Shown one piece after another: positions 14,151 through 40,195 of a DNA stretch of 62,220 nt (position 1 is the stretch's first letter; each line of letters opens with the position of its first letter). Below the pieces are notes generated by a model. It had not been told where the DNA came from. It worked only from the letters and a program-made list of their open reading frames with translations, and ran no database searches. The position numbers were made by a program, and so were the translations under genes. Source of the DNA: an uncultured Thermoleophilia bacterium. GTDB lineage: Bacteria; Actinomycetota; Thermoleophilia; UBA2241. The stretch is from positions 1-62,220 of the forward strand of contig CAIOZS010000112.1 in assembly GCA_903862845.1 (NCBI GenBank), given 5' to 3'.

Positions 14151-14266
14151 CCGAGCTCCTTCCACTCGTCCATACTTGACTGCACGCCGTTGGGGCCGCC
14201 GGGGAGCCCCCTCTCGTCCCGGGACGAGCCCCTTCGTCCAACACCAGGAGAGCACTGGGAAGTGGC

Positions 14267-15751
14267 ATGAGCGAACCCGTTCCATCCGAGCCCGGAGTGA
14301 GGAGCCTGAAGAGGGCGCAGGTCCGCATCATCACCGTCTTCTTCATGATCTACATCCTCGTTTCGGGCGGCTCGTTCGGCATCGAGGACATGGTGTCATC
14401 GTCCGGGCCGGGCCTGACGCTCCTCCTCCTCATCCTGCTGCCGATCTTCTGGAGCATGCCGATGGCGCTCATCGCCAGCGAGCTCGGGTCGGCACTGCCC
14501 GGCGAGGGCGGCTTCTACGTCTGGACGCGGCGCGCGCTCGGCGACTTCTGGGGTTTTCAGACCGCCTGGTGGTGGTCGCTCTCGATCTTCGTCGACTCGT
14601 CCGTCTACATCGTGCTCGGCGTCGGCTACCTGCAGAACTGGCTGGGCTTCAGCCAGCTCTGGTTCTACGTGATCTGCTGGGCCATCATCGCCGTCTTCGC
14701 GACCATGAACATCATCGGCGTGAAGCTCATCGCGCTCAGTTCGACGCTGTTCTCGATCCTCATCCTGGCGCCGTTCTTCGCGCTCATCGTCGTCGGCCTG
14801 GCCAAGTGGAACTTCAACCCGCTGACCCCGGTCACGGTGCCGGGCGCGCCCCTTTTCGGCAGCGGCGGCGTGTTCGCGCTCGGCCTCGCGATCGGCGTGT
14901 GGATGTATTCGGGCTACGAGTCGATGTCGACCCTTTCGGGCGAGATCCGCAACCCGCAGAAGATCATCCCGCGGGCCCTCATGCTGGCGGTGCCGTTCAT
15001 CATCATCATGTATGTGCTACCCACGCTCGCGAGCCTCGCCGGGTACGGCCACTGGGACAGCTTCGCGACGCAGGCCGGCGACGGCTACGTCTCGTTCGTC
15101 GAGATCGGCAAGTCGCTGGGTGGCTCTGCGCTCGGCGTCGCGCTCCTCGCCTCGGCGCTGCTCGGCAACCTCGCCCTCTACCTCGACTACCTCGCCTCCG
15201 GCGCCCGCCCGCTGTTCGCGATCTCGGCGGACGGGCTGTTTCCCAAGTCGATCTCCATCGTGAGCAAGCGCTTCGGCACGCCGATCGCCGCCATCCTGCT
15301 CATGGCCGCGCTCAACGCGGTCCTCATCGTCGGGCCGTTCCAGAACCTCGTGGTGATCGACGTGATCCTCTTCATCTCCGCCTACGTGCTCATCTTCATC
15401 TCGGCGGTGCGCCTGCGCATCAAAGAGCCGAATCTCAAACGGCCCTTCCGCGTGCCGTTCGGCACCGCCGGCATGGTGGCGATGGTCATCCCGCCGATCC
15501 TCATCGTCATCTTCACGATCTACGTCAACGCCATCGACCGCAGCACGACGATCTTCGGATTCACAGGCTTCAGGTTGCTCGGCATCGACGTGGGCTGGTA
15601 CGGCATCGCCGGATTCGTCGCGCTGCTTTCCGGCCCGGTGCTGTACTCCGTGTTCCGGGCCATCTACGGCGGGCCGCGCAACCCGTCGCGCGAAGCCGGC
15701 AACGAGGCGCTCACCCTGGCCGAGGCCGAAGCCGCCGAGGACGCCGCCTGA
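14267..15751 (+). CDS. APC-family amino acid/polyamine permease
   Basis: About 12 hydrophobic segments; GGSFGIE, ELGSALPGEGGFYVW, GYESMSTLSGEIRNP, LRIKEPNLKRPF. Confidence 0.9.
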   Translation: MSEPVPSEPGVRSLKRAQVRIITVFFMIYILVSGGSFGIEDMVSSSGPGLTLLLLILLPIFWSMPMALIASELGSALPGEGGFYVWTRRALGDFWGFQTAWWWSLSIFVDSSVYIVLGVGYLQNWLGFSQLWFYVICWAIIAVFATMNIIGVKLIALSSTLFSILILAPFFALIVVGLAKWNFNPLTPVTVPGAPLFGSGGVFALGLAIGVWMYSGYESMSTLSGEIRNPQKIIPRALMLAVPFIIIMYVLPTLASLAGYGHWDSFATQAGDGYVSFVEIGKSLGGSALGVALLASALLGNLALYLDYLASGARPLFAISADGLFPKSISIVSKRFGTPIAAILLMAALNAVLIVGPFQNLVVIDVILFISAYVLIFISAVRLRIKEPNLKRPFRVPFGTAGMVAMVIPPILIVIFTIYVNAIDRSTTIFGFTGFRLLGIDVGWYGIAGFVALLSGPVLYSVFRAIYGGPRNPSREAGNEALTLAEAEAAEDAA

Positions 15752-17184
15752 TGCAGACCCGGATCCAGATCCTTTCGGAGGCCGAGAAGGCGCAGGTCCA
15801 CGAGCGCACGCTGAAGGTGCTCGGCAGCGTCGGCATGCGCTGCGACACCTCCGAAGGGCGCCGGATCCTGGCTGCCGCCGGCGCCCGAGTCGACGAGGCC
15901 ACGCGCATGGTCCGCTTCCCGCCCGAGCTCATTGAGCGCTCACTGGCTCAGGCGCGCAAGGAGTTCACCGTGCACGGCCGCCGACCGGGCTGGAGCTTCC
16001 CTCTCAACGCCGGCGAGTCCACGCTCCTCGCCGACGGCGGCGCCACAGCCGTCTTCGACGCCGCCACCGGCGAGCGCCGGCCCACGACGCACGCCGACTG
16101 GCTGGCCGCCACCCGGCTTCACGATGCGCTCGACGACGTCGGCTTCTACTGGTGTCCCGTCGACTACGCCCTCGACTACGAGCAGCCGGGCGGCTTCGTG
16201 CGCTACTACGCGGACGTGTTCGCCACCTTCGGCAAGCACGTGCAGGATTCGTTCGGCACGCCCGCGCTGGCGCCGTGGCTCAAAGAGGTGCTCGACATCG
16301 TGTTCGGCAGCCGCGAGGCCGTGCGCGAGCAGATGCCGTTCTCCTTCCTCATCACGCCCGCGTCTCCGCTCACCATCGAGCACGACTTCACCCAGACCTG
16401 GCTCGAGCTGCGCGACTACGGGCTGCCGGTGGCGATCATGCCGATGCCCCTGCAGGGCGCCACAGCGCCCGGCAGCCGGCTCGGCACCCTTCTGGCCGCC
16501 AACTGCGAGACTATCGGCACGCTCTGCCTGGTGCAGGCCGCGGCGCCGGGCACGCCGGTCATCTACTCGCCGGTGATCGCGACGATGGATCCGCGGTCGG
16601 GGTCGTATGCCGCCGGCGCCGTCGAGCACGCCGTGCTCTGCGCCGCCGGCACCGAGATGGCCCGCTACTACGGCCTGCCGGCCGAGTCCTCAGGCCTCTG
16701 CACCCAGACCTACGAGCCCGACCTGCAGACCGCGTGGGAGAAGGCCAACGGGGCGCTCCTCATCACCCTCTCAGGCCCCGACGTGCTGGTCGGTCCCGGC
16801 CTTCTGGGGGGTGCGACGATCCTCTGCCTCGAGCAGATCGTCATGGACGTCGAGATGATCCGCCTCGCCCGGCAGGCGCGCGCAGGCATACCGGTGCGCG
16901 AAGATCTGTGGCTCGACGAGATCCTCGACAAGGTCGGGCCCTGCGGCTCCTTCCTCGGCGAGCGCTCGACGCGGCAGAACGCCCGCCGCGGCGAGTGGCG
17001 CCTGAGCGACCTCGGCGTGCAGGGCAGCTGGGACGCCTGGCAGGCGGCGGGGTCGCCGACCACGGTCGCCGCCGCCCGTGAGCGCGTCGAGCAGCTTCTG
17101 GCGGGCCAGGTTTCGCTGCCCTACAGCGACGGCCAGGCCGCGGCTCTGGCGGATCTGCAGCGCCGCGCCGACGCAGCGTCCTAA
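15751..17184 (+). CDS. MttB-superfamily corrinoid methyltransferase, non-pyrrolysine
   Basis: ATG overlaps the permease TGA (TGATG); LSEAEKAQVHERTLKVL, PASPL, GATAP, YYGLP, EQIVMDVEMI; no in-frame TAG. Confidence 0.88.
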   Translation: MQTRIQILSEAEKAQVHERTLKVLGSVGMRCDTSEGRRILAAAGARVDEATRMVRFPPELIERSLAQARKEFTVHGRRPGWSFPLNAGESTLLADGGATAVFDAATGERRPTTHADWLAATRLHDALDDVGFYWCPVDYALDYEQPGGFVRYYADVFATFGKHVQDSFGTPALAPWLKEVLDIVFGSREAVREQMPFSFLITPASPLTIEHDFTQTWLELRDYGLPVAIMPMPLQGATAPGSRLGTLLAANCETIGTLCLVQAAAPGTPVIYSPVIATMDPRSGSYAAGAVEHAVLCAAGTEMARYYGLPAESSGLCTQTYEPDLQTAWEKANGALLITLSGPDVLVGPGLLGGATILCLEQIVMDVEMIRLARQARAGIPVREDLWLDEILDKVGPCGSFLGERSTRQNARRGEWRLSDLGVQGSWDAWQAAGSPTTVAAARERVEQLLAGQVSLPYSDGQAAALADLQRRADAAS

Positions 17185-36474: not shown

Positions 36475-37944
36475 GTGAAACGCAATCTGTTCGCCGGCCG
36501 CAGGCGCAGCGGCGGCATCGGCCTCGACGTGTTCACCGACGACGAGATCCAGGACGTCCATCTCGCGACCCTCGAAGTGCTGGAGCGCACCGGGGTGTGG
36601 GTGGAGATCGACGAGGCGCTCGACATCTTCAGTGACGGGGGGTGCGTAGTCGACCGCGAGTCGCACACCGTGAGGATCCCGCCGCACCTCGTGGAGGACG
36701 CCATCCGCAGCGCGCCCGCCAGCATCACGCTGTGCGGCCGCGACCCGGCCAACGACATTGTCATCGGCGCCGGCCGCGTCGGCTTCAGCAACTTCGGCGA
36801 GGGCGTCATGGTCGTCGACCCGTACAGCGGTGAGCTGCGATCGTCCACCAAGCAGGACCTCAGCGACATCGCCAAGCTCGTCGACGCGCTGCCCGAGGTG
36901 GACGTCTTCGAGATCGCCGTCGGCGCCGGCGACATGCCGCCGGCGACGGCTTCGATCCACAACCACGAGGCGGCCATCGCCGGGCAGACCAAGCCGATCT
37001 CCGGCGGGCCGCTCGACGGCCGCGCCGTGCGCATCAGCCTGGCCATGCTCGAGGCCGTGCAGGGCAGCGCCGACGCCGTGCGCGAGCGGCCGATGATGAT
37101 CATGGGCACTTGCCCCGTGAGCCCGCTGAAGCTGGTGAGCGATTGCTGCGAGATCGTCATCGAGGCGGCGCGCGCCGGGGTGCCGAGCTGCGTGCTCAGC
37201 ATGGCCATGGCGGGCGCTTCCGGCCCCGTCACGCTCGCCGGGACGCTGGTCACCCACAACGCCGAGGTGCTCGCCGGCATCGTGCTGGCGCAGCTCACGG
37301 AGCGCGGCGCCAAGGTGCTCTACGGCTCGTCGACGACCGCCATGGACCTGCGGCTGGCGGCGGCCTCCGTCGGCTCGCCGGAGTGCGCCCTGATCAGCGC
37401 CGGCGTGGCCCAGCTCGCCAGGCAGTACCGCCTGCCGAGCTACATCGCCGGTGCGTAGGGCGACAGCAAGCTCAGTGACGTGCAGACCGGTCACGAGAAA
37501 ACCCTCACGGCCTTGATGGCAGCGTTGGCAGGGACCAACCTGATCTACGGCCTGGGAATGATCGAGTCGGGCGTCACCTTCGACTACGCGCAGCTTGTGA
37601 TCGACGACGAGATCGCGCGCATGGTCAAGCAGGTCGTCGGCGGCATCCGCGTGAGCGACGAACGCCTCGCGGTCGACGACATCGCGAGAGTCGGCGCGTT
37701 CGGCGACTTCCTAAGCCTGGATGCGACCATGGCGCACATGCGCGAGCAGTCGCAGCCGAAGCTCATCGACCGCCGCGTGCGCGAGGACTGGGAGGAACGT
37801 GGCGGCACCGACATGTATCAGCGCGCCCAGGTCCGGGCCCGCGAGATTCTCGAGACCCACGTGCCCGAGCCGCTGCCCGACGACGTGCGGCAGCGGGTCC
37901 GCAAGATCGTGGGCGACGCCGATCGCGAACTGGCCGGCGCCTGA
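36475..37944 (+). CDS. mttB: Trimethylamine:corrinoid methyltransferase, pyrrolysine-containing (in-frame TAG 37456-37458, codon 328 of 489)
   Basis: RBS GGAGGAGG before GTG 36475; CPVSPL, LSMAMAGASGPVTLAGTLVTHNAEVL, YGSSTT, VGSPE; ...YRLPSYIAGA-TAG-GDSKLSDVQTGHEKT... stays in frame and matches the Pyl site of methanogen MttB (LPSYVAGS-O-SDAK...GHEKT). Confidence 0.95.
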
Positions 37945-37946
37945 CG

Positions 37947-38618
37947 TCAGTCGAGCAGCCAGTCCTTACCGGTCGCGAGGTGCGTGCGCAACGCGTAGCC
38001 GCCGCTGGCAGTGACCGAATAGCCGAAGTCGCCCGTCGCCTCGCTCTGCGTCACGGCGGCGTGCGTCCAGGGGTTCTGTGGCCAGACCGGCACGCCGGGC
38101 TGCACGCCCACGGGCCCGCCGCTCGCTACGTCGGCCGCGGCCGGGGCGACCCCGGCGTGCGTGCGTGCCCACATCTCCACGTACTGTTGCAGCAGGGCCA
38201 GCCCCGCCTTGGTAGATGCGTCGCGCTCGTCCCTGAGCCAGCCGGGGACTCCGCCGCTGACCTTGTACGAGCCCTTGGAGAGGTGGCCGACCAGAGTGTA
38301 GCCGCTCAGGTCGGCTTTCACTTTGTACGTGTAGGTGCCCCTCGAGGTGCCGGGCGCCATTGTTCCGCCGGTCCAGGGGTTGCCCGGCCAGACCGGCGCG
38401 ACCAGAGCGCCGCCCTTCACCACGTCGCTGCGCGCCGGGAACACGAAGCCGTTGCTCTGGGCCTGGGTGTTGATGTAGCCCTGCAGGAGCAGGATATTCA
38501 TCTGCACCTGTTTGTCGACGAAGCTCACGGCCGCGCTTGCGGCGGCCGGCAGCGTAGCGGTGGCAGCCAGGACGGCGACGAGCACGACGAGGAGGATGCT
38601 GAAGCGGCGCGTTCTCAT
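37947..38618 (-). CDS. Secreted protein with two pseudopilin (GspG)-like WPxNPWT domains
   Basis: RBS GGAGG, Sec signal peptide ending ...AAASA; internal repeat VWPGNPWTG / VWPQNPWTH. Confidence 0.75.
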   Translation of the reverse strand: MRTRRFSILLVVLVAVLAATATLPAAASAAVSFVDKQVQMNILLLQGYINTQAQSNGFVFPARSDVVKGGALVAPVWPGNPWTGGTMAPGTSRGTYTYKVKADLSGYTLVGHLSKGSYKVSGGVPGWLRDERDASTKAGLALLQQYVEMWARTHAGVAPAAADVASGGPVGVQPGVPVWPQNPWTHAAVTQSEATGDFGYSVTASGGYALRTHLATGKDWLLD

Positions 38619-38809
38619 GGGTGCCTCCAGGGGGGACGGCAGAGTGTCGCCCAAGTCTGGCCGGGGCGCCGAGACCGGTCAAGCGCACTTCGCGGCACGG
38701 GCACCCAGCCGCCGCGTGCCGGGGCGGAGCCGCGGCGCCTGATACGATGCCTCCATTGGCGCCGCGGGCTCGCGGCCGGCGCGCCAGCGACGCGAACGAG
38801 GTGATGCCG

Positions 38810-40195
38810 GTGGAAGCCAGGATCCCGACCCGCATGGGCGACGGTTTCATGGTCGAGATGACGCGCAGCGAGCTGCGCGCGGACATCCAGGTGGCCAGCG
38901 AAGAAGCGGCGCGCAGGGCCCGGGTGCCGCCGCTCACGGCCGACGAGCAGGCGCACCTGCTCGACATCTACGCGTCTCCGGCGGCCTTCACCGCCGTCGA
39001 TATCGGCGACCAGGTCGTGCTGAGCTGCGATGGCGGCGGCAGCAAGATGACGGGCACGGACATCCAGGACCTCCTGGAAAGCGAGCAGCGCCTGGGCCAG
39101 GACATCCTCGAGCTTTGGCATATCGAGTACAGCTACAAGGCGATCAAGACGATCCTGCCGTTTCAGCAGCAGGTGATGCAGAACGCGCAGCTGATGCTCA
39201 CGGCACCCATTCAATACGGCGCGCAGCCCAACCTCGCTTTCTACAGCAAGCCCGACGGCCCGGCCAGCAACTGGTTCGAGCTGCTCCCCAAAGGGGACAT
39301 CGCCGGAGCGCGGGCAGCCATCGACGAGGCGATGGAGCACGCGACGCAGGACATGGTGTACGTCACGGGCGGCATGATCGAGGCCGGCGCCGACGGTGTC
39401 GACTTCGACACCACCGGAGGCGCCGGCGACGGCGACTTCCTCAGCACCCTGCGCGCCGTGAAGCACGTGCGCGAGAAGTACCCGGAGGCCGGCATCGAGC
39501 TGGGCATGGCCGGCGAGCTCGTGATCGGCGTGCACGGCGAGCTTGAGTGGGAGGGCCGCCGGCTCGCCGGCCTGTGGCCACGCGAGCAGCTCGAGGTGTG
39601 CCAGGACGCCGGCGTCACCCTGTTCGGGCCGGCGGTCAACATCCGCACCAGCAAGAGCTGCGCCTGGAACATCGCCTACTCCCTCACGGTCATCAAGCCG
39701 TGCATGGAGGTGGCGCGCATCCCCGTGCACCCCAACGTCGGTGAAGGCGTGTGCGGCGTGCCGGTCAACGGCTATCCGCCCGAGGACGCCGCATCGCGGG
39801 CGGCGAAGGCCTTGGTCGACATCCTGCGCTGCGACGGCTTGTAGGTGGGCTCGGGTGACTCCCGGGGAATGGACGTCACCCACGCGCTCGCCGCAGGCAT
39901 GGGCGGGATGCGCACGGCCGGAGACCTGGTCGCGCGCATGCAGATGTCCCGTGGGATGCGCTTGAAGGAAGCCAAAGACTACGTGGCCGGCAAGCTCGGC
40001 TGCACGGTTCGCGACCTCAGTGACAGCTATGCGATGGAGCAGATCCGGGGGGAGAAGGGCCTGGGCCGGATCCTCGACCACTCCAACCTCCACCCCGGCG
40101 AGCCCAACGCGATGATGGCCAAGTTCCGCATCGCCGAGCTGCTCGGCATCCGCATCAACTCGGTCGACAAGTTCAGGGACCTGGCGGGACTGTAG
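38810..40195 (+). CDS. mtbB: Dimethylamine:corrinoid methyltransferase, pyrrolysine-containing (in-frame TAG 39842-39844)
   Basis: TRMGDG, HIEYSYK, YGAQPN, PDGP, GADGVDFDTTGGAGDGD, GMAGE, LAGLWP; ...ILRCDGL-TAG-VGSGDSRGM...GMRTAGDLVARMQ matches MtbB (GVDGI-O-IGVGDPLGM...GDLVARM); start 38810 or 38804. Confidence 0.93.

What the first reader, a model, noticed from the sequence alone, without database searches (positions are those of the whole stretch)
36475..40195. Pyrrolysine genetic-code expansion implied in a high-GC, Actinomycetota-like genome
Seen: two different methylamine methyltransferase families (MttB, MtbB) within 3.7 kb each carry one in-frame TAG at the family's Pyl position, intact on both sides. 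Two independent nonsense mutations at both catalytic sites is implausible. Established: Pyl is best characterised in methanogenic archaea, Firmicutes and Desulfobacterota, where mttB/mtbB usually sit beside their corrinoid protein genes. Seen: here they are not one operon (an antisense secreted-protein gene lies between them), and no corrinoid protein, RamA or pylTSBCD gene was recognised in 62 kb. Inference: an anaerobic methylamine-using actinobacterium-like organism with a dispersed Pyl system. Whether this lineage is already reported needs a literature check.
Basis: partly seen in the sequence, partly recalled or inferred. Interest (0 to 1): 0.9.

Follow-up and report, generated by a model that had tools for sequence, protein, structure and literature searches.

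The report
Pyrrolysine-using methylamine genes in Thermoleophilia
Two methylamine-methyltransferase genes each carry a conserved in-frame TAG that this actinobacterial (Thermoleophilia) genome can read as the 22nd amino acid pyrrolysine, a real but already reported trait that is much more widespread and expanded in this lineage than the literature suggests.

Summary
mttB (36475-37944) and mtbB (38801-40195) each have one in-frame TAG (37456-37458 and 39842-39844). They score above the NCBIfam equivalog cut-offs for the Pyl-dependent tri- and dimethylamine methyltransferases.

The mttB TAG aligns to Pyl334 of the solved Methanosarcina barkeri MttB.

The rest of the genome (94% complete) holds pylSc, pylSn, pylB, pylC, pylD and a tRNA-Pyl(CUA). 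By synteny these lie in one locus, split here by an assembly gap. It also holds 14 further TAG-bearing methylamine methyltransferase genes, corrinoid proteins, two RamA-like activases and AcsB.

Both TAGs are conserved in 10 of 10 orthologues. dN/dS is 0.08-0.40 on both sides of them. TAG still ends about 23% of confident ORFs, and RF1 is present.

The nearest relatives are Thermoleophilia MAGs. PylSc was found in 73 of 79 sampled genomes of the same family.

Two papers already mention this: PylRS in "two Actinobacteria", and Actinobacteriota MAGs expressing Pyl-encoding mttB and mtbB. I therefore rate it a new member of a known kind, of moderate interest.

The parts
36475..37944 (+). mttB: trimethylamine:corrinoid methyltransferase, 489 aa, read through one UAG. 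The GTG start at 36475 is inferred from alignment to the solved MttB from its residue 3.
   Evidence: TIGR02369 702.2 bits against cut-off 525. PF06253 330 bits. PDB 7xcm/7xcl MttB E=9e-118 over residues 2-488. Orthologues of 79-94% identity, each with 1 TAG, in about 20 of 25 congeners.
37456..37458 (+). In-frame TAG of mttB (residue 328), read as pyrrolysine.
   Evidence: Aligns to chain residue 334 of 7xcm, which is Pyl334 in PMC9842639. TAG in 10 of 10 orthologues. dN/dS downstream of it is 0.09-0.32.
37947..38654 (-). 235-aa predicted secreted protein of unknown family, antisense between mttB and mtbB.
   Evidence: ORF. No Pfam or NCBIfam family. Homologues, often two in tandem, lie on the 5' side of the mtbB orthologue in 8 of 9 related loci; the ninth, L123, has only a weak 83-aa match on the other side. 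Atlas gives only weak leads (best 0.90, unnamed clusters; a T2SS-G-like cluster at 0.86).
38801..40195 (+). mtbB: dimethylamine:corrinoid methyltransferase family, 464 aa, read through one UAG. The GTG start at 38801 (or ATG at 38804) is inferred.
   Evidence: TIGR02368 392.2 bits against cut-off 369.1. PF09505 528.5 bits. Orthologues of 84-93% identity with 1 TAG in congeners.
39842..39844 (+). In-frame TAG of mtbB (residue 348), read as pyrrolysine.
   Evidence: TAG at the same column in 10 of 10 MtbB paralogues of this genome and in 10 of 10 orthologues. dN/dS downstream is 0.08-0.20.
40193..40195 (+). Terminal TAG of mtbB, used as a stop in the same mRNA.
   Evidence: TAG ends the gene in 10 of 10 orthologues. 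Sequence beyond it is not conserved.

Best explanation
The two genes are functional, pyrrolysine-dependent methylamine:corrinoid methyltransferases (MT1 enzymes) of a Pyl-decoding member of the class Thermoleophilia (Actinomycetota).

Shown:
- Each gene needs one UAG read through.
- The genome encodes the whole Pyl system: PylB, PylC and PylD to make Pyl from lysine; split PylSn+PylSc to charge it; and tRNA-Pyl(CUA) to insert it.
- The UAGs and the coding sequence on both sides of them are under purifying selection across species.

Inferred mechanism:
- Pyl-tRNA(CUA) competes with RF1 at UAG. Full-length MttB and MtbB therefore carry Pyl in the active site, where it binds and activates tri- or dimethylamine.
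- The methyl group passes to Co(I) of a corrinoid protein encoded elsewhere in the genome.
- RamA-like activases re-reduce the oxidised corrinoid.
- URO-D-family MT2 enzymes pass the methyl on, most likely to tetrahydrofolate.
- The methyl then enters a Wood-Ljungdahl-type pathway (AcsB is present).

UAG is not reassigned. It remains a common stop codon, and mtbB itself ends in UAG. Decoding is therefore ambiguous or regulated, as in other Pyl bacteria.
For: Family membership and the Pyl site:
- Both genes score above the equivalog cut-offs.
- The mttB TAG aligns to Pyl334 of solved MttB. The partners of Tyr364, Met249 and Gly110 are conserved in the alignment.

Pyl machinery, all above curated cut-offs:
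- PylSc 312 bits, PylB 443, PylC 338, PylD 207, PylSn 120-123.
- tRNA-Pyl(cta), 73 nt, with a 6-bp anticodon stem, a 3-nt variable loop and a small D arm.

Other TAG-bearing genes:
- All 15 internal stops in the 5 MttB and 10 MtbB genes are TAG.
- MtmB on C264 has 1 TAG and is followed by a corrinoid gene.

Accessory genes:
- 29 B12-binding matches, 2 RamA-type matches, AcsB/CdhC at 216 bits, and 5 URO-D matches of which 4 lie beside corrinoid genes.

Selection:
- TAG is kept in 10 of 10 orthologues of each gene.
- mttB dN/dS is 0.11-0.40 upstream and 0.09-0.32 downstream of the TAG. mtbB dN/dS is 0.14-0.20 upstream and 0.08-0.20 downstream.

Lineage:
- All 25 sampled congeners have MtbB homologues. 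Every listed match that covers the site has a TAG.
- 24 of 25 congeners have Pyl-type MttB.
- PylSc is over its cut-off in 23 of 24 congeners.

UAG still a stop:
- TAG ends 587 of 2524 confident ORFs.
- RF1 scores 483 bits against cut-off 423.
Against: - There is no protein-level evidence that Pyl is inserted.
- No corrinoid protein, MT2 or RamA gene lies in the 62-kb window, so the partners of these two enzymes are unassigned.
- The genome is a 352-contig MAG with 2.6% contamination. Several paralogues sit at contig ends, so the copy number could be slightly off. However, congeners with 7-20 contigs show 9-11 MtbB matches.
- One congener (G004, 93% complete) has TAG-bearing mtbB and mttB but no PylSc match.
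- No conserved RNA element that would separate the internal UAG from the terminal UAG was found.
- The RNA-library contigs that lie over both genes are 85-97% alike. They may come from relatives or from DNA carry-over.
Confidence: 0.92

Rival explanations
1. Both genes are pseudogenes: dead acquisitions inactivated by nonsense mutations.
For: Under the standard code each frame is interrupted. No partner genes lie in the window.
Against: The stop is TAG at the family's Pyl column in 15 of 15 paralogues and in 10 of 10 orthologues of each gene. dN/dS downstream of the TAG is 0.08-0.32. The complete pyl machinery is present.
Confidence: 0.02
2. UAG is reassigned genome-wide to pyrrolysine, as in the recently described archaeal code. 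On this view TAG-ending genes are really longer.
For: There is a high load of Pyl genes (at least 16). mtbB has a second TAG at its end.
Against: TAG ends 23.3% of 2524 confident ORFs. A next in-frame stop follows no sooner than after TGA (within 10 codons in 9.4% against 10.8%). RF1 is present above its cut-off. Sequence after the terminal TAG of mtbB is unconserved in 10 orthologues. Of 8 read-through candidates tested, none has a domain spanning its TAG.
Confidence: 0.02
3. The contig is a mis-binned piece of a known Pyl lineage (Bacillota or Desulfobacterota), not of an actinobacterium.
For: The genome is a fragmented MAG with 2.6% contamination. One related PylSc contig carries a 'Deltaproteobacteria' title.
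Against: The window's G+C is 65-73% throughout, typical of this genome. Syntenic orthologues of both genes occur in congeners assembled in 7-40 contigs. PylSc of 50 Actinomycetota-labelled records forms one clade with this genome's copy (SH-aLRT 96, quick tree). The nearest Bacillota PylSc is only 55% identical.
Confidence: 0.02
4. The genes are intact, but several of the divergent MtbB and MttB paralogues, possibly including the window's copies, act on amines other than di- or trimethylamine.
For: The ten MtbB paralogues are only 44-61% identical to the window's copy. The window's MtbB passes its equivalog cut-off narrowly (392 against 369). The genome also holds about 30 non-Pyl MttB-superfamily genes.
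Against: No substrate data exist. Retention of Pyl and of family-level scores fits the canonical substrates equally well.
Confidence: 0.25

Closest known systems
Methanosarcina barkeri MttB (PDB 7xcl/7xcm) with MtbB, MtmB and their corrinoid proteins
   Same: Same enzyme families. The mttB UAG aligns to Pyl334, and the Tyr364, Met249 and Gly110 equivalents are kept. MtmB, MtbB and MttB types are all present in the genome, each with UAG.
   Different: The host is bacterial. The window's genes are not beside their corrinoid protein genes. The methyl acceptor is presumably tetrahydrofolate and the Wood-Ljungdahl pathway rather than coenzyme M (inference). Thr111 is Glu in the alignment. There are far more paralogues.
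Bacterial Pyl systems of Bacillota (Desulfitobacterium and Acetobacterium type cassette pylT-pylSc-pylB-pylC-pylD-pylSn)
   Same: Split PylSn + PylSc, pylBCD and tRNA-Pyl(CUA). UAG is still used as a stop, as stated for D. hafniense in PMC1976440 (passage).
   Different: The gene order is rearranged. pylB-pylC-pylD-tRNAPyl-pylSn lie on one strand and pylSc converges on them from 1-5 kb away, with other genes between. In the Acetobacterium locus L089 all lie on one strand with the tRNA first. PylSc is 45-55% identical to the Bacillota copies returned.
Delta1 symbiont of Olavius algarvensis (Desulfobacterota), PMC1976440
   Same: A bacterium with multiple UAG-bearing mttB and mtbB genes plus one pyl locus and many selenoproteins. 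This genome also has a tRNA-Sec.
   Different: That organism had 8 Pyl methyltransferase genes, called the largest number in bacteria at the time (passage). This genome has at least 16. It belongs to a different phylum and its DNA is held in freshwater and lake metagenomes.
Actinobacteriota MAGs of Stordalen Mire expressing Pyl-encoding mttB and mtbB (PMC10805028), and the 'two Actinobacteria' with PylRS in PMC9630628
   Same: Same phylum and the same two gene families with the amber codon. One related PylSc locus (L073) carries the title of a fen MAG.
   Different: In the passages I saw, those papers note the genes in a sentence each. They do not describe the pyl locus, the tRNA, the paralogue expansion or the family-wide spread. 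I could not establish whether their MAGs are the same genus, because the supplements are closed and no GTDB names are available here.

Membership tests
MttB, Pyl-dependent trimethylamine:corrinoid methyltransferase (TIGR02369) | Full-length match above the equivalog cut-off | tested here: met
   702.2 bits against 525, residues 16-483 on profile 2-469 of 469.
MttB, Pyl-dependent trimethylamine:corrinoid methyltransferase (TIGR02369) | In-frame UAG at the position of Pyl334 of M. barkeri MttB | tested here: met
   Residue 328 aligns to chain residue 334 of 7xcm. Pyl334 is named in PMC9842639.
MttB, Pyl-dependent trimethylamine:corrinoid methyltransferase (TIGR02369) | Active-site neighbours of Pyl (Tyr364, Met249, Gly110-Thr111) | tested here: met
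   Tyr, Met and Gly are conserved in the alignment. Thr111 is Glu; the paper invokes the main-chain carbonyl of that peptide bond.
MttB, Pyl-dependent trimethylamine:corrinoid methyltransferase (TIGR02369) | [quoted passage not shown] | not testable with these tools
   Needs an enzyme assay. No corrinoid gene is in the window.
MtbB, dimethylamine:corrinoid methyltransferase (TIGR02368 / PF09505) | Full-length match above the cut-off | tested here: met
   392.2 bits against 369.1. PF09505 528.5 bits, residues 9-460 on profile 4-462 of 463.
MtbB, dimethylamine:corrinoid methyltransferase (TIGR02368 / PF09505) | In-frame UAG at the family's Pyl position | tested here: inconclusive
   TAG is at one column in 10 of 10 paralogues and 10 of 10 orthologues. 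I did not align it against a characterised archaeal MtbB: no solved structure was found, so identity with the archaeal Pyl column rests on the profile match only.
Pyrrolysine insertion system (pylT, pylS, pylBCD) | tRNA with CUA anticodon and tRNA-Pyl architecture | tested here: met
   ARAGORN tRNA-Pyl(cta) at C180 3344-3416, minus strand. The same call was made in 29 related Actinomycetota-labelled loci. The hallmark list (6-bp anticodon stem, 3-nt variable loop, short D loop) is recalled, not taken from a call.
Pyrrolysine insertion system (pylT, pylS, pylBCD) | Pyrrolysyl-tRNA synthetase (PylSc catalytic part, and PylSn in bacteria) | tested here: met
   TIGR02367 312 bits against 178. TIGR03912 120-123 bits against 51.
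Pyrrolysine insertion system (pylT, pylS, pylBCD) | Pyl biosynthesis genes pylB, pylC and pylD | tested here: met
   443 against 348, 338 against 248 and 207 against 150 bits. The genes are contiguous on C180 4523-7640, minus strand.
Pyrrolysine insertion system (pylT, pylS, pylBCD) | Pyl actually found in the protein at the UAG position | not testable with these tools
   Needs mass spectrometry.

The most novel reading that the evidence does not exclude
One whole family of freshwater and wetland Thermoleophilia is a large, overlooked bacterial reservoir of pyrrolysine decoding, with the biggest bacterial pyrroproteomes so far: at least 16 UAG-bearing methyltransferase genes per genome. About ten of these are divergent MtbB paralogues (44-61% identical), each keeping its UAG. 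On this reading they are neofunctionalised Pyl enzymes for amines other than dimethylamine. All this happens while a quarter of ordinary genes, mtbB included, still end in UAG. That implies an as yet unknown way of telling sense UAG from stop UAG, or of tolerating the ambiguity.
Probability: 0.3. Interest if true: 0.7.

Novelty: new member of a known kind. Interest (0 to 1): 0.45.

Why it matters
Pyrrolysine is usually presented as a trait of methanogens, some Bacillota and Desulfobacterota. Here it is a near-universal feature of a species-rich family of anaerobic Thermoleophilia: PylSc was found in 73 of 79 sampled genomes. These genomes carry a complete, rearranged pyl locus and an unusually large set of Pyl enzymes.

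Such bacteria would compete with methylotrophic methanogens for methylamines in lakes and wetlands, which bears on methane budgets.

Standard gene callers split every one of these genes at the TAG. That under-counts this metabolism in metagenome surveys.

The lineage's PylRS/tRNA pair comes from a 70% G+C actinobacterial background. It may interest groups that collect orthogonal pairs for genetic-code expansion.

Tried and rejected
PYLIS-like RNA element.
- The 120 nt after the mtbB UAG fold better than dinucleotide shuffles (z -2.62; 2 of 200 shuffles fold as well). mttB (z -0.85), the terminal UAG (z -0.96) and two control windows (0.04, -0.47) do not.
- Orthologues are nearly invariant there, so they give little covariation: 3 of 42 pairs have a double change.
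- Against other 90-nt windows of the same gene, the post-UAG window is unremarkable in 10 of 10 MtbB paralogues (z -0.88 to +1.09) and 5 of 5 MttB paralogues (z -0.02 to +1.91). No common fold appears.
- I rejected it as evidence for an insertion element.

Further Pyl proteins.
- A crude scan found 71 TAGs flanked by coding-like sequence on both sides.
- Eleven are the methyltransferases. Most of the other 60 have a start codon just after the TAG, so they are adjacent genes.
- I tested 8 of the 60 by Pfam. None has a domain spanning its TAG.
- One candidate (C290) is a PAS-PAS-TAG-HD-GYP arrangement. Its paralogues are uninterrupted fusions, and no orthologue with a TAG was found in 25 congeners. 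It may be a nonsense mutation or a one-off read-through.
- The other 52 were not tested.

Expression.
- RNA-library contigs of three studies lie over both genes and bridge both TAG sites at 85-97% likeness.
- These are contigs, may come from relatives or DNA carry-over, and cover a small share of the words (0.05-0.08). I give them no weight.
- The near-absence of RNA contigs over the antisense gene is likewise not interpretable.

Donor of the pyl genes.
- The quick PylSc tree (56 of 59 loci plus this genome's copy) separates the Actinomycetota clade from 5 outgroup rows on long branches.
- Three Actinomycetota-labelled rows were dropped because their match was under 240 aa or interrupted.
- No donor can be named. 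The careful search did not finish and I did not rerun it.

Secreted 235-aa protein. No Pfam or NCBIfam family matched. The Atlas gives only leads under 0.9 apart from one unnamed cluster at 0.90. Its function is left open.

GTDB name of the lineage. No tool names G000. The genome's own record was withheld. The assignment to Thermoleophilia rests on record titles of relatives whose locus DNA is 73-91% identical over the stretches aligned. I could not tell whether it is the genus RBG-16-64-13 of PMC10805028 or the order UBA2241 of PMC7438021.

Literature.
- 'pyrrolysine' + 'Thermoleophilia' returned 1 paper, which from its title and abstract start looks unrelated; I did not open it.
- 'pyrrolysine' + 'Actinomycetota' returned 8 papers, 6 listed. 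I opened one of them, PMC13695967, which mentions only the UGA reassignment in Eggerthellaceae for this phylum. Judging by titles and abstract starts, none of the others is about a Pyl system in this phylum.
- Supplements of PMC9630628 and PMC10805028, which may name the same MAGs, are closed.


Full report
OBSERVATION

Under the standard bacterial code, two long plus-strand frames in the window are each cut by one TAG, at 37456-37458 and 39842-39844. With TAG read through they become continuous.

The first gene (36475-37944, 489 aa) scores 702.2 bits on NCBIfam TIGR02369, the equivalog model for trimethylamine:corrinoid methyltransferase (cut-off 525). The second (38801-40195, 464 aa) scores 392.2 bits on TIGR02368, the dimethylamine enzyme (cut-off 369.1). 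Pfam agrees: PF06253 scores 330 bits and PF09505 scores 528.5 bits.

Against solved structures, the first protein matches Methanosarcina barkeri MttB (7xcm/7xcl) at E=9e-118 over its whole length. The residue encoded by the TAG aligns with chain residue 334. The structure paper names Pyl334 as the pyrrolysine (PMC9842639, passages). The equivalents of Tyr364, Met249 and Gly110, which that paper places around Pyl, are conserved in the same alignment. Thr111 is Glu. MtbB has no solved relative.

Between the two genes, on the other strand, lies a 235-aa ORF with a hydrophobic leader and no family match.

THE REST OF THE GENOME

The window is contig C112 of a 4.38-Mb, 352-contig assembly rated 94% complete and 2.6% contaminated.

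Pyl machinery. Whole-genome profile scans found each gene once and above its curated cut-off (confirmed on the called ORFs):
- PylSc on C15 (980-1840, minus strand; 312 bits against 178)
- PylB (443 against 348), PylC (338 against 248) and PylD (207 against 150), contiguous on C180
- PylSn on C180 (120-123 against 51)

ARAGORN finds 45 tRNAs. Among them is a 73-nt tRNA-Pyl with anticodon CUA on C180, between pylD and pylSn. Its drawn fold has a six-pair anticodon stem, a three-base variable loop and a very small D arm. From memory, these are the hallmarks of tRNA-Pyl.

Other methyltransferase genes. tblastn with the two window proteins shows that they are not alone:
- Five close MttB paralogues (54-66% identical to the window's) and ten MtbB paralogues (44-61%) cover the Pyl column.
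- All fifteen have TAG there.
- An MtmB gene with one TAG sits at the start of C264, followed by a corrinoid-protein gene.
- About thirty further MttB-superfamily genes carry an ordinary residue at that column.

Accessory genes:
- 29 B12-binding domain matches, about a dozen in small proteins of 190-245 aa
- two RamA-type (RACo_C_ter) genes
- five URO-D-family genes, four of them beside corrinoid genes
- AcsB/CdhC

None of these accessory genes is on C112.

IS THE TAG READ?

Three lines of evidence argue that it is.

First, conservation. In a sample of 25 genomes of the same genus, all 25 have MtbB homologues (1-11 matches each). Every listed match that covers the site has a TAG. 24 of 25 have Pyl-type MttB, and all but one listed match has a TAG.

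Second, the window's own genes have syntenic orthologues. The mttB orthologues are 79-94% identical and the mtbB orthologues 84-93%. In congeners such as G024, G002, G001 and G013 the two genes lie about 1-3.4 kb apart on one contig.

Third, selection. I compared the window's copy with nine orthologues of each gene:
- The codon is TAG in 10 of 10.
- mttB dN/dS is 0.11-0.40 upstream and 0.09-0.32 downstream of the TAG.
- mtbB dN/dS is 0.14-0.20 upstream and 0.08-0.20 downstream.
- Synonymous divergence is 0.26-0.76 per site.

Sequence beyond a true stop would not be held like this. The pseudogene reading is excluded.

UAG IS STILL A STOP

Among 2524 ORFs of at least 200 codons with a coding-like G+C pattern, 1841 end in TGA, 587 in TAG (23.3%) and 96 in TAA. 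A backup stop is no closer after TAG than after TGA. RF1 is present (483 bits against cut-off 423).

mtbB itself ends in TAG, as do all nine orthologues examined. The sequence beyond that TAG is not conserved.

The organism therefore uses UAG ambiguously, as described for other Pyl bacteria (D. hafniense, in PMC1976440, passage). It has not reassigned the codon as some archaea have.

I looked for an RNA element that might mark the internal UAG. The window's mtbB folds well after its UAG against shuffles (z -2.62). However, the window is ordinary against the rest of the gene, and no common fold appears in 10 MtbB and 5 MttB paralogues. I found no such element.

THE PYL LOCUS

In this assembly pylSc seems to stand alone at the start of C15, far from pylBCD on C180. 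This is an assembly artefact.

In 39 of 54 related loci, pylSn lies 1-5 kb downstream of pylSc on the opposite strand. Where the flank reaches, it is followed by tRNA-Pyl, pylD, pylC and pylB. Of the remaining 15 loci, 13 have under 1.1 kb of flank. Two (L064, L074) have a long flank without these genes.

The first bases of C15 and of C180 map 460-462 bp apart on 10 of 10 relatives checked. The pyl genes are therefore one locus of about 8-9 kb.

The order differs from the Bacillota cassette. In the Acetobacterium locus returned by the same search, the genes run tRNA-Sc-B-C-D-Sn on one strand. Here B-C-D-tRNA-Sn run on one strand and Sc converges on them, with a radical-SAM-like gene, and in some genomes a SAM methyltransferase, between.

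WHO IS IT?

The genome's own record is withheld. A scan of one genome per GTDB species with its PylSc returned 59 loci:
- 53 carry the titles 'Thermoleophilia bacterium', 'Actinomycetota bacterium' or 'Actinomycetes bacterium', at 67-88% identity.
- One 5.7-kb contig is titled Deltaproteobacteria. It has the same upstream amidase and is nested deep in the clade, so it is probably mis-binned.
- Five are outgroups at 45-55% identity (Clostridia, Acetobacterium, two other Bacillota, Methanomassiliicoccus).

Flanking non-Pyl genes and intergenic DNA are 73-91% identical to those relatives over the stretches aligned. The assignment to that lineage therefore does not rest on a transferable gene alone.

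A quick tree puts the Actinomycetota PylSc and this genome's copy in one clade (SH-aLRT 96), consistent with a single origin. No donor can be named.

Spread of PylSc:
- Class sample (401 genomes including this one): 73 of 79 genomes of the same family, 9 of 61 of a second family, and 0 of 260 in the other ten families.
- Phylum sample (401 genomes including this one): besides this genome, only one other, from that second family.

These are samples. 'Not found' means not found in those searched.

The window's DNA is held nearly word for word in freshwater and lake-water metagenomes of several studies.

HOW IT MOST LIKELY WORKS

Shown: the genes, the codon, the machinery and the selection.

Inferred from the established biochemistry of these families:
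1. PylBCD make Pyl from two lysines.
2. PylSn/PylSc charge tRNA-Pyl.
3. At the internal UAG this tRNA competes with RF1.
4. Full-length MttB and MtbB use Pyl to bind and activate TMA or DMA, and methylate a Co(I) corrinoid protein encoded elsewhere.
5. RamA-like proteins reactivate the oxidised corrinoid.
6. A URO-D-family MT2 passes the methyl on, probably to tetrahydrofolate.
7. The presence of AcsB suggests entry into a Wood-Ljungdahl-type pathway.

Which corrinoid protein serves the window's two enzymes is unknown.

WHAT IS KNOWN

PMC9630628 counted PylRS genes in 81 bacterial genomes, 'two Actinobacteria' among them (passage).

[quoted passage not shown] It named the genus RBG-16-64-13 as the phylum's most active methylotroph (passages).

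PMC7438021 describes anaerobic Thermoleophilia of order UBA2241 from the same kinds of habitat, without mention of Pyl in the passages I saw.

The full-text searches found no paper that dissects the Pyl system of this lineage.

For comparison, the Olavius delta1 symbiont had 8 Pyl methyltransferase genes and was called the richest bacterium in 2007 (PMC1976440). This genome has at least 16, and congeners assembled in few contigs show similar numbers.

VERDICT

It is a new member of a known kind rather than a new kind: Pyl in Actinobacteriota is in print, if only in passing.

What this work adds:
- the complete, rearranged pyl locus
- the family-wide spread
- the exceptional expansion of MtbB
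- undiminished use of UAG as a stop, even within mtbB

Noticed in passing
window 14180-17130 (+): An amino-acid permease gene (14180-15751) is followed directly by a non-Pyl MttB-superfamily gene (about 15763-17130; 28% identical to the window's MttB; Cys at the Pyl-aligned column; PF06253 221 bits). This looks like an uptake-plus-demethylation pair for a quaternary amine or similar substrate.
   Followed up: partly
whole genome G000: About 30 non-Pyl MttB-superfamily paralogues are scattered over some 20 contigs, several in tandem (C216, C238, C269). This is a very large set for one 4.4-Mb genome.
   Followed up: partly
window 40193-40195 and loci L122-L130: mtbB ends in TAG in 10 of 10 orthologues, so one mRNA carries both a sense UAG and a stop UAG. 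Four of nine complete MtbB paralogues of this genome end in TAG, against 23% of ORFs genome-wide.
   Followed up: partly
G000 C290 13678-15357 (-), locus L113: A PAS-PAS protein is joined in frame through a single TAG to an HD-GYP domain. Paralogues in the genome are uninterrupted PAS-HD-GYP fusions, and no orthologue with a TAG was seen in 25 congeners. It is either a nonsense mutation or a Pyl-dependent read-through.
   Followed up: partly
G000 C180 373-1251 (+), locus L120: A radical-SAM-like gene sits inside the pyl locus between pylSc and pylSn. It has weak matches to B12-binding radical SAM families, and its 5' end is probably lost in the assembly gap. It is conserved at 76-91% DNA identity in 10 of 10 relatives.
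   Followed up: partly
G000 C277 7967-8064 (-): A tRNA-Sec (UCA) lies on the same contig as an mtbB/mttB pair. The organism may therefore use both the 21st and the 22nd amino acid.
   Followed up: no
window 37947-38654 (-) and loci L122-L130: The 235-aa secreted protein belongs to a family with one or two tandem copies next to the mtbB orthologue in 8 of 9 related loci. It contains an internally repeated Trp/Pro-rich motif. The Atlas gives a weak lead to T2SS protein G-like clusters (0.86).
   Followed up: partly
G000 C180 3417-4522: About 1.1 kb with no confident ORF separates tRNA-Pyl from pylD in this genome. In relative L038 the tRNA follows pylD by about 55 nt, and in L043 the gap is about 860 nt.
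   Followed up: no
locus L055: A 5.7-kb contig titled 'Deltaproteobacteria bacterium' carries a PylSc 78% identical to this genome's, and the same upstream amidase. It nests inside the Thermoleophilia clade, so it is probably a mis-binned contig rather than a transfer.
   Followed up: partly
genomes G004, G041, G042: Three congeners rated 93-98% complete gave no PylSc match. Two of them are small (1.7-1.8 Mb, 1-2 contigs). G004 nevertheless keeps three TAG-bearing mtbB and three TAG-bearing mttB genes. This could be loss in progress or an assembly gap.
   Followed up: no
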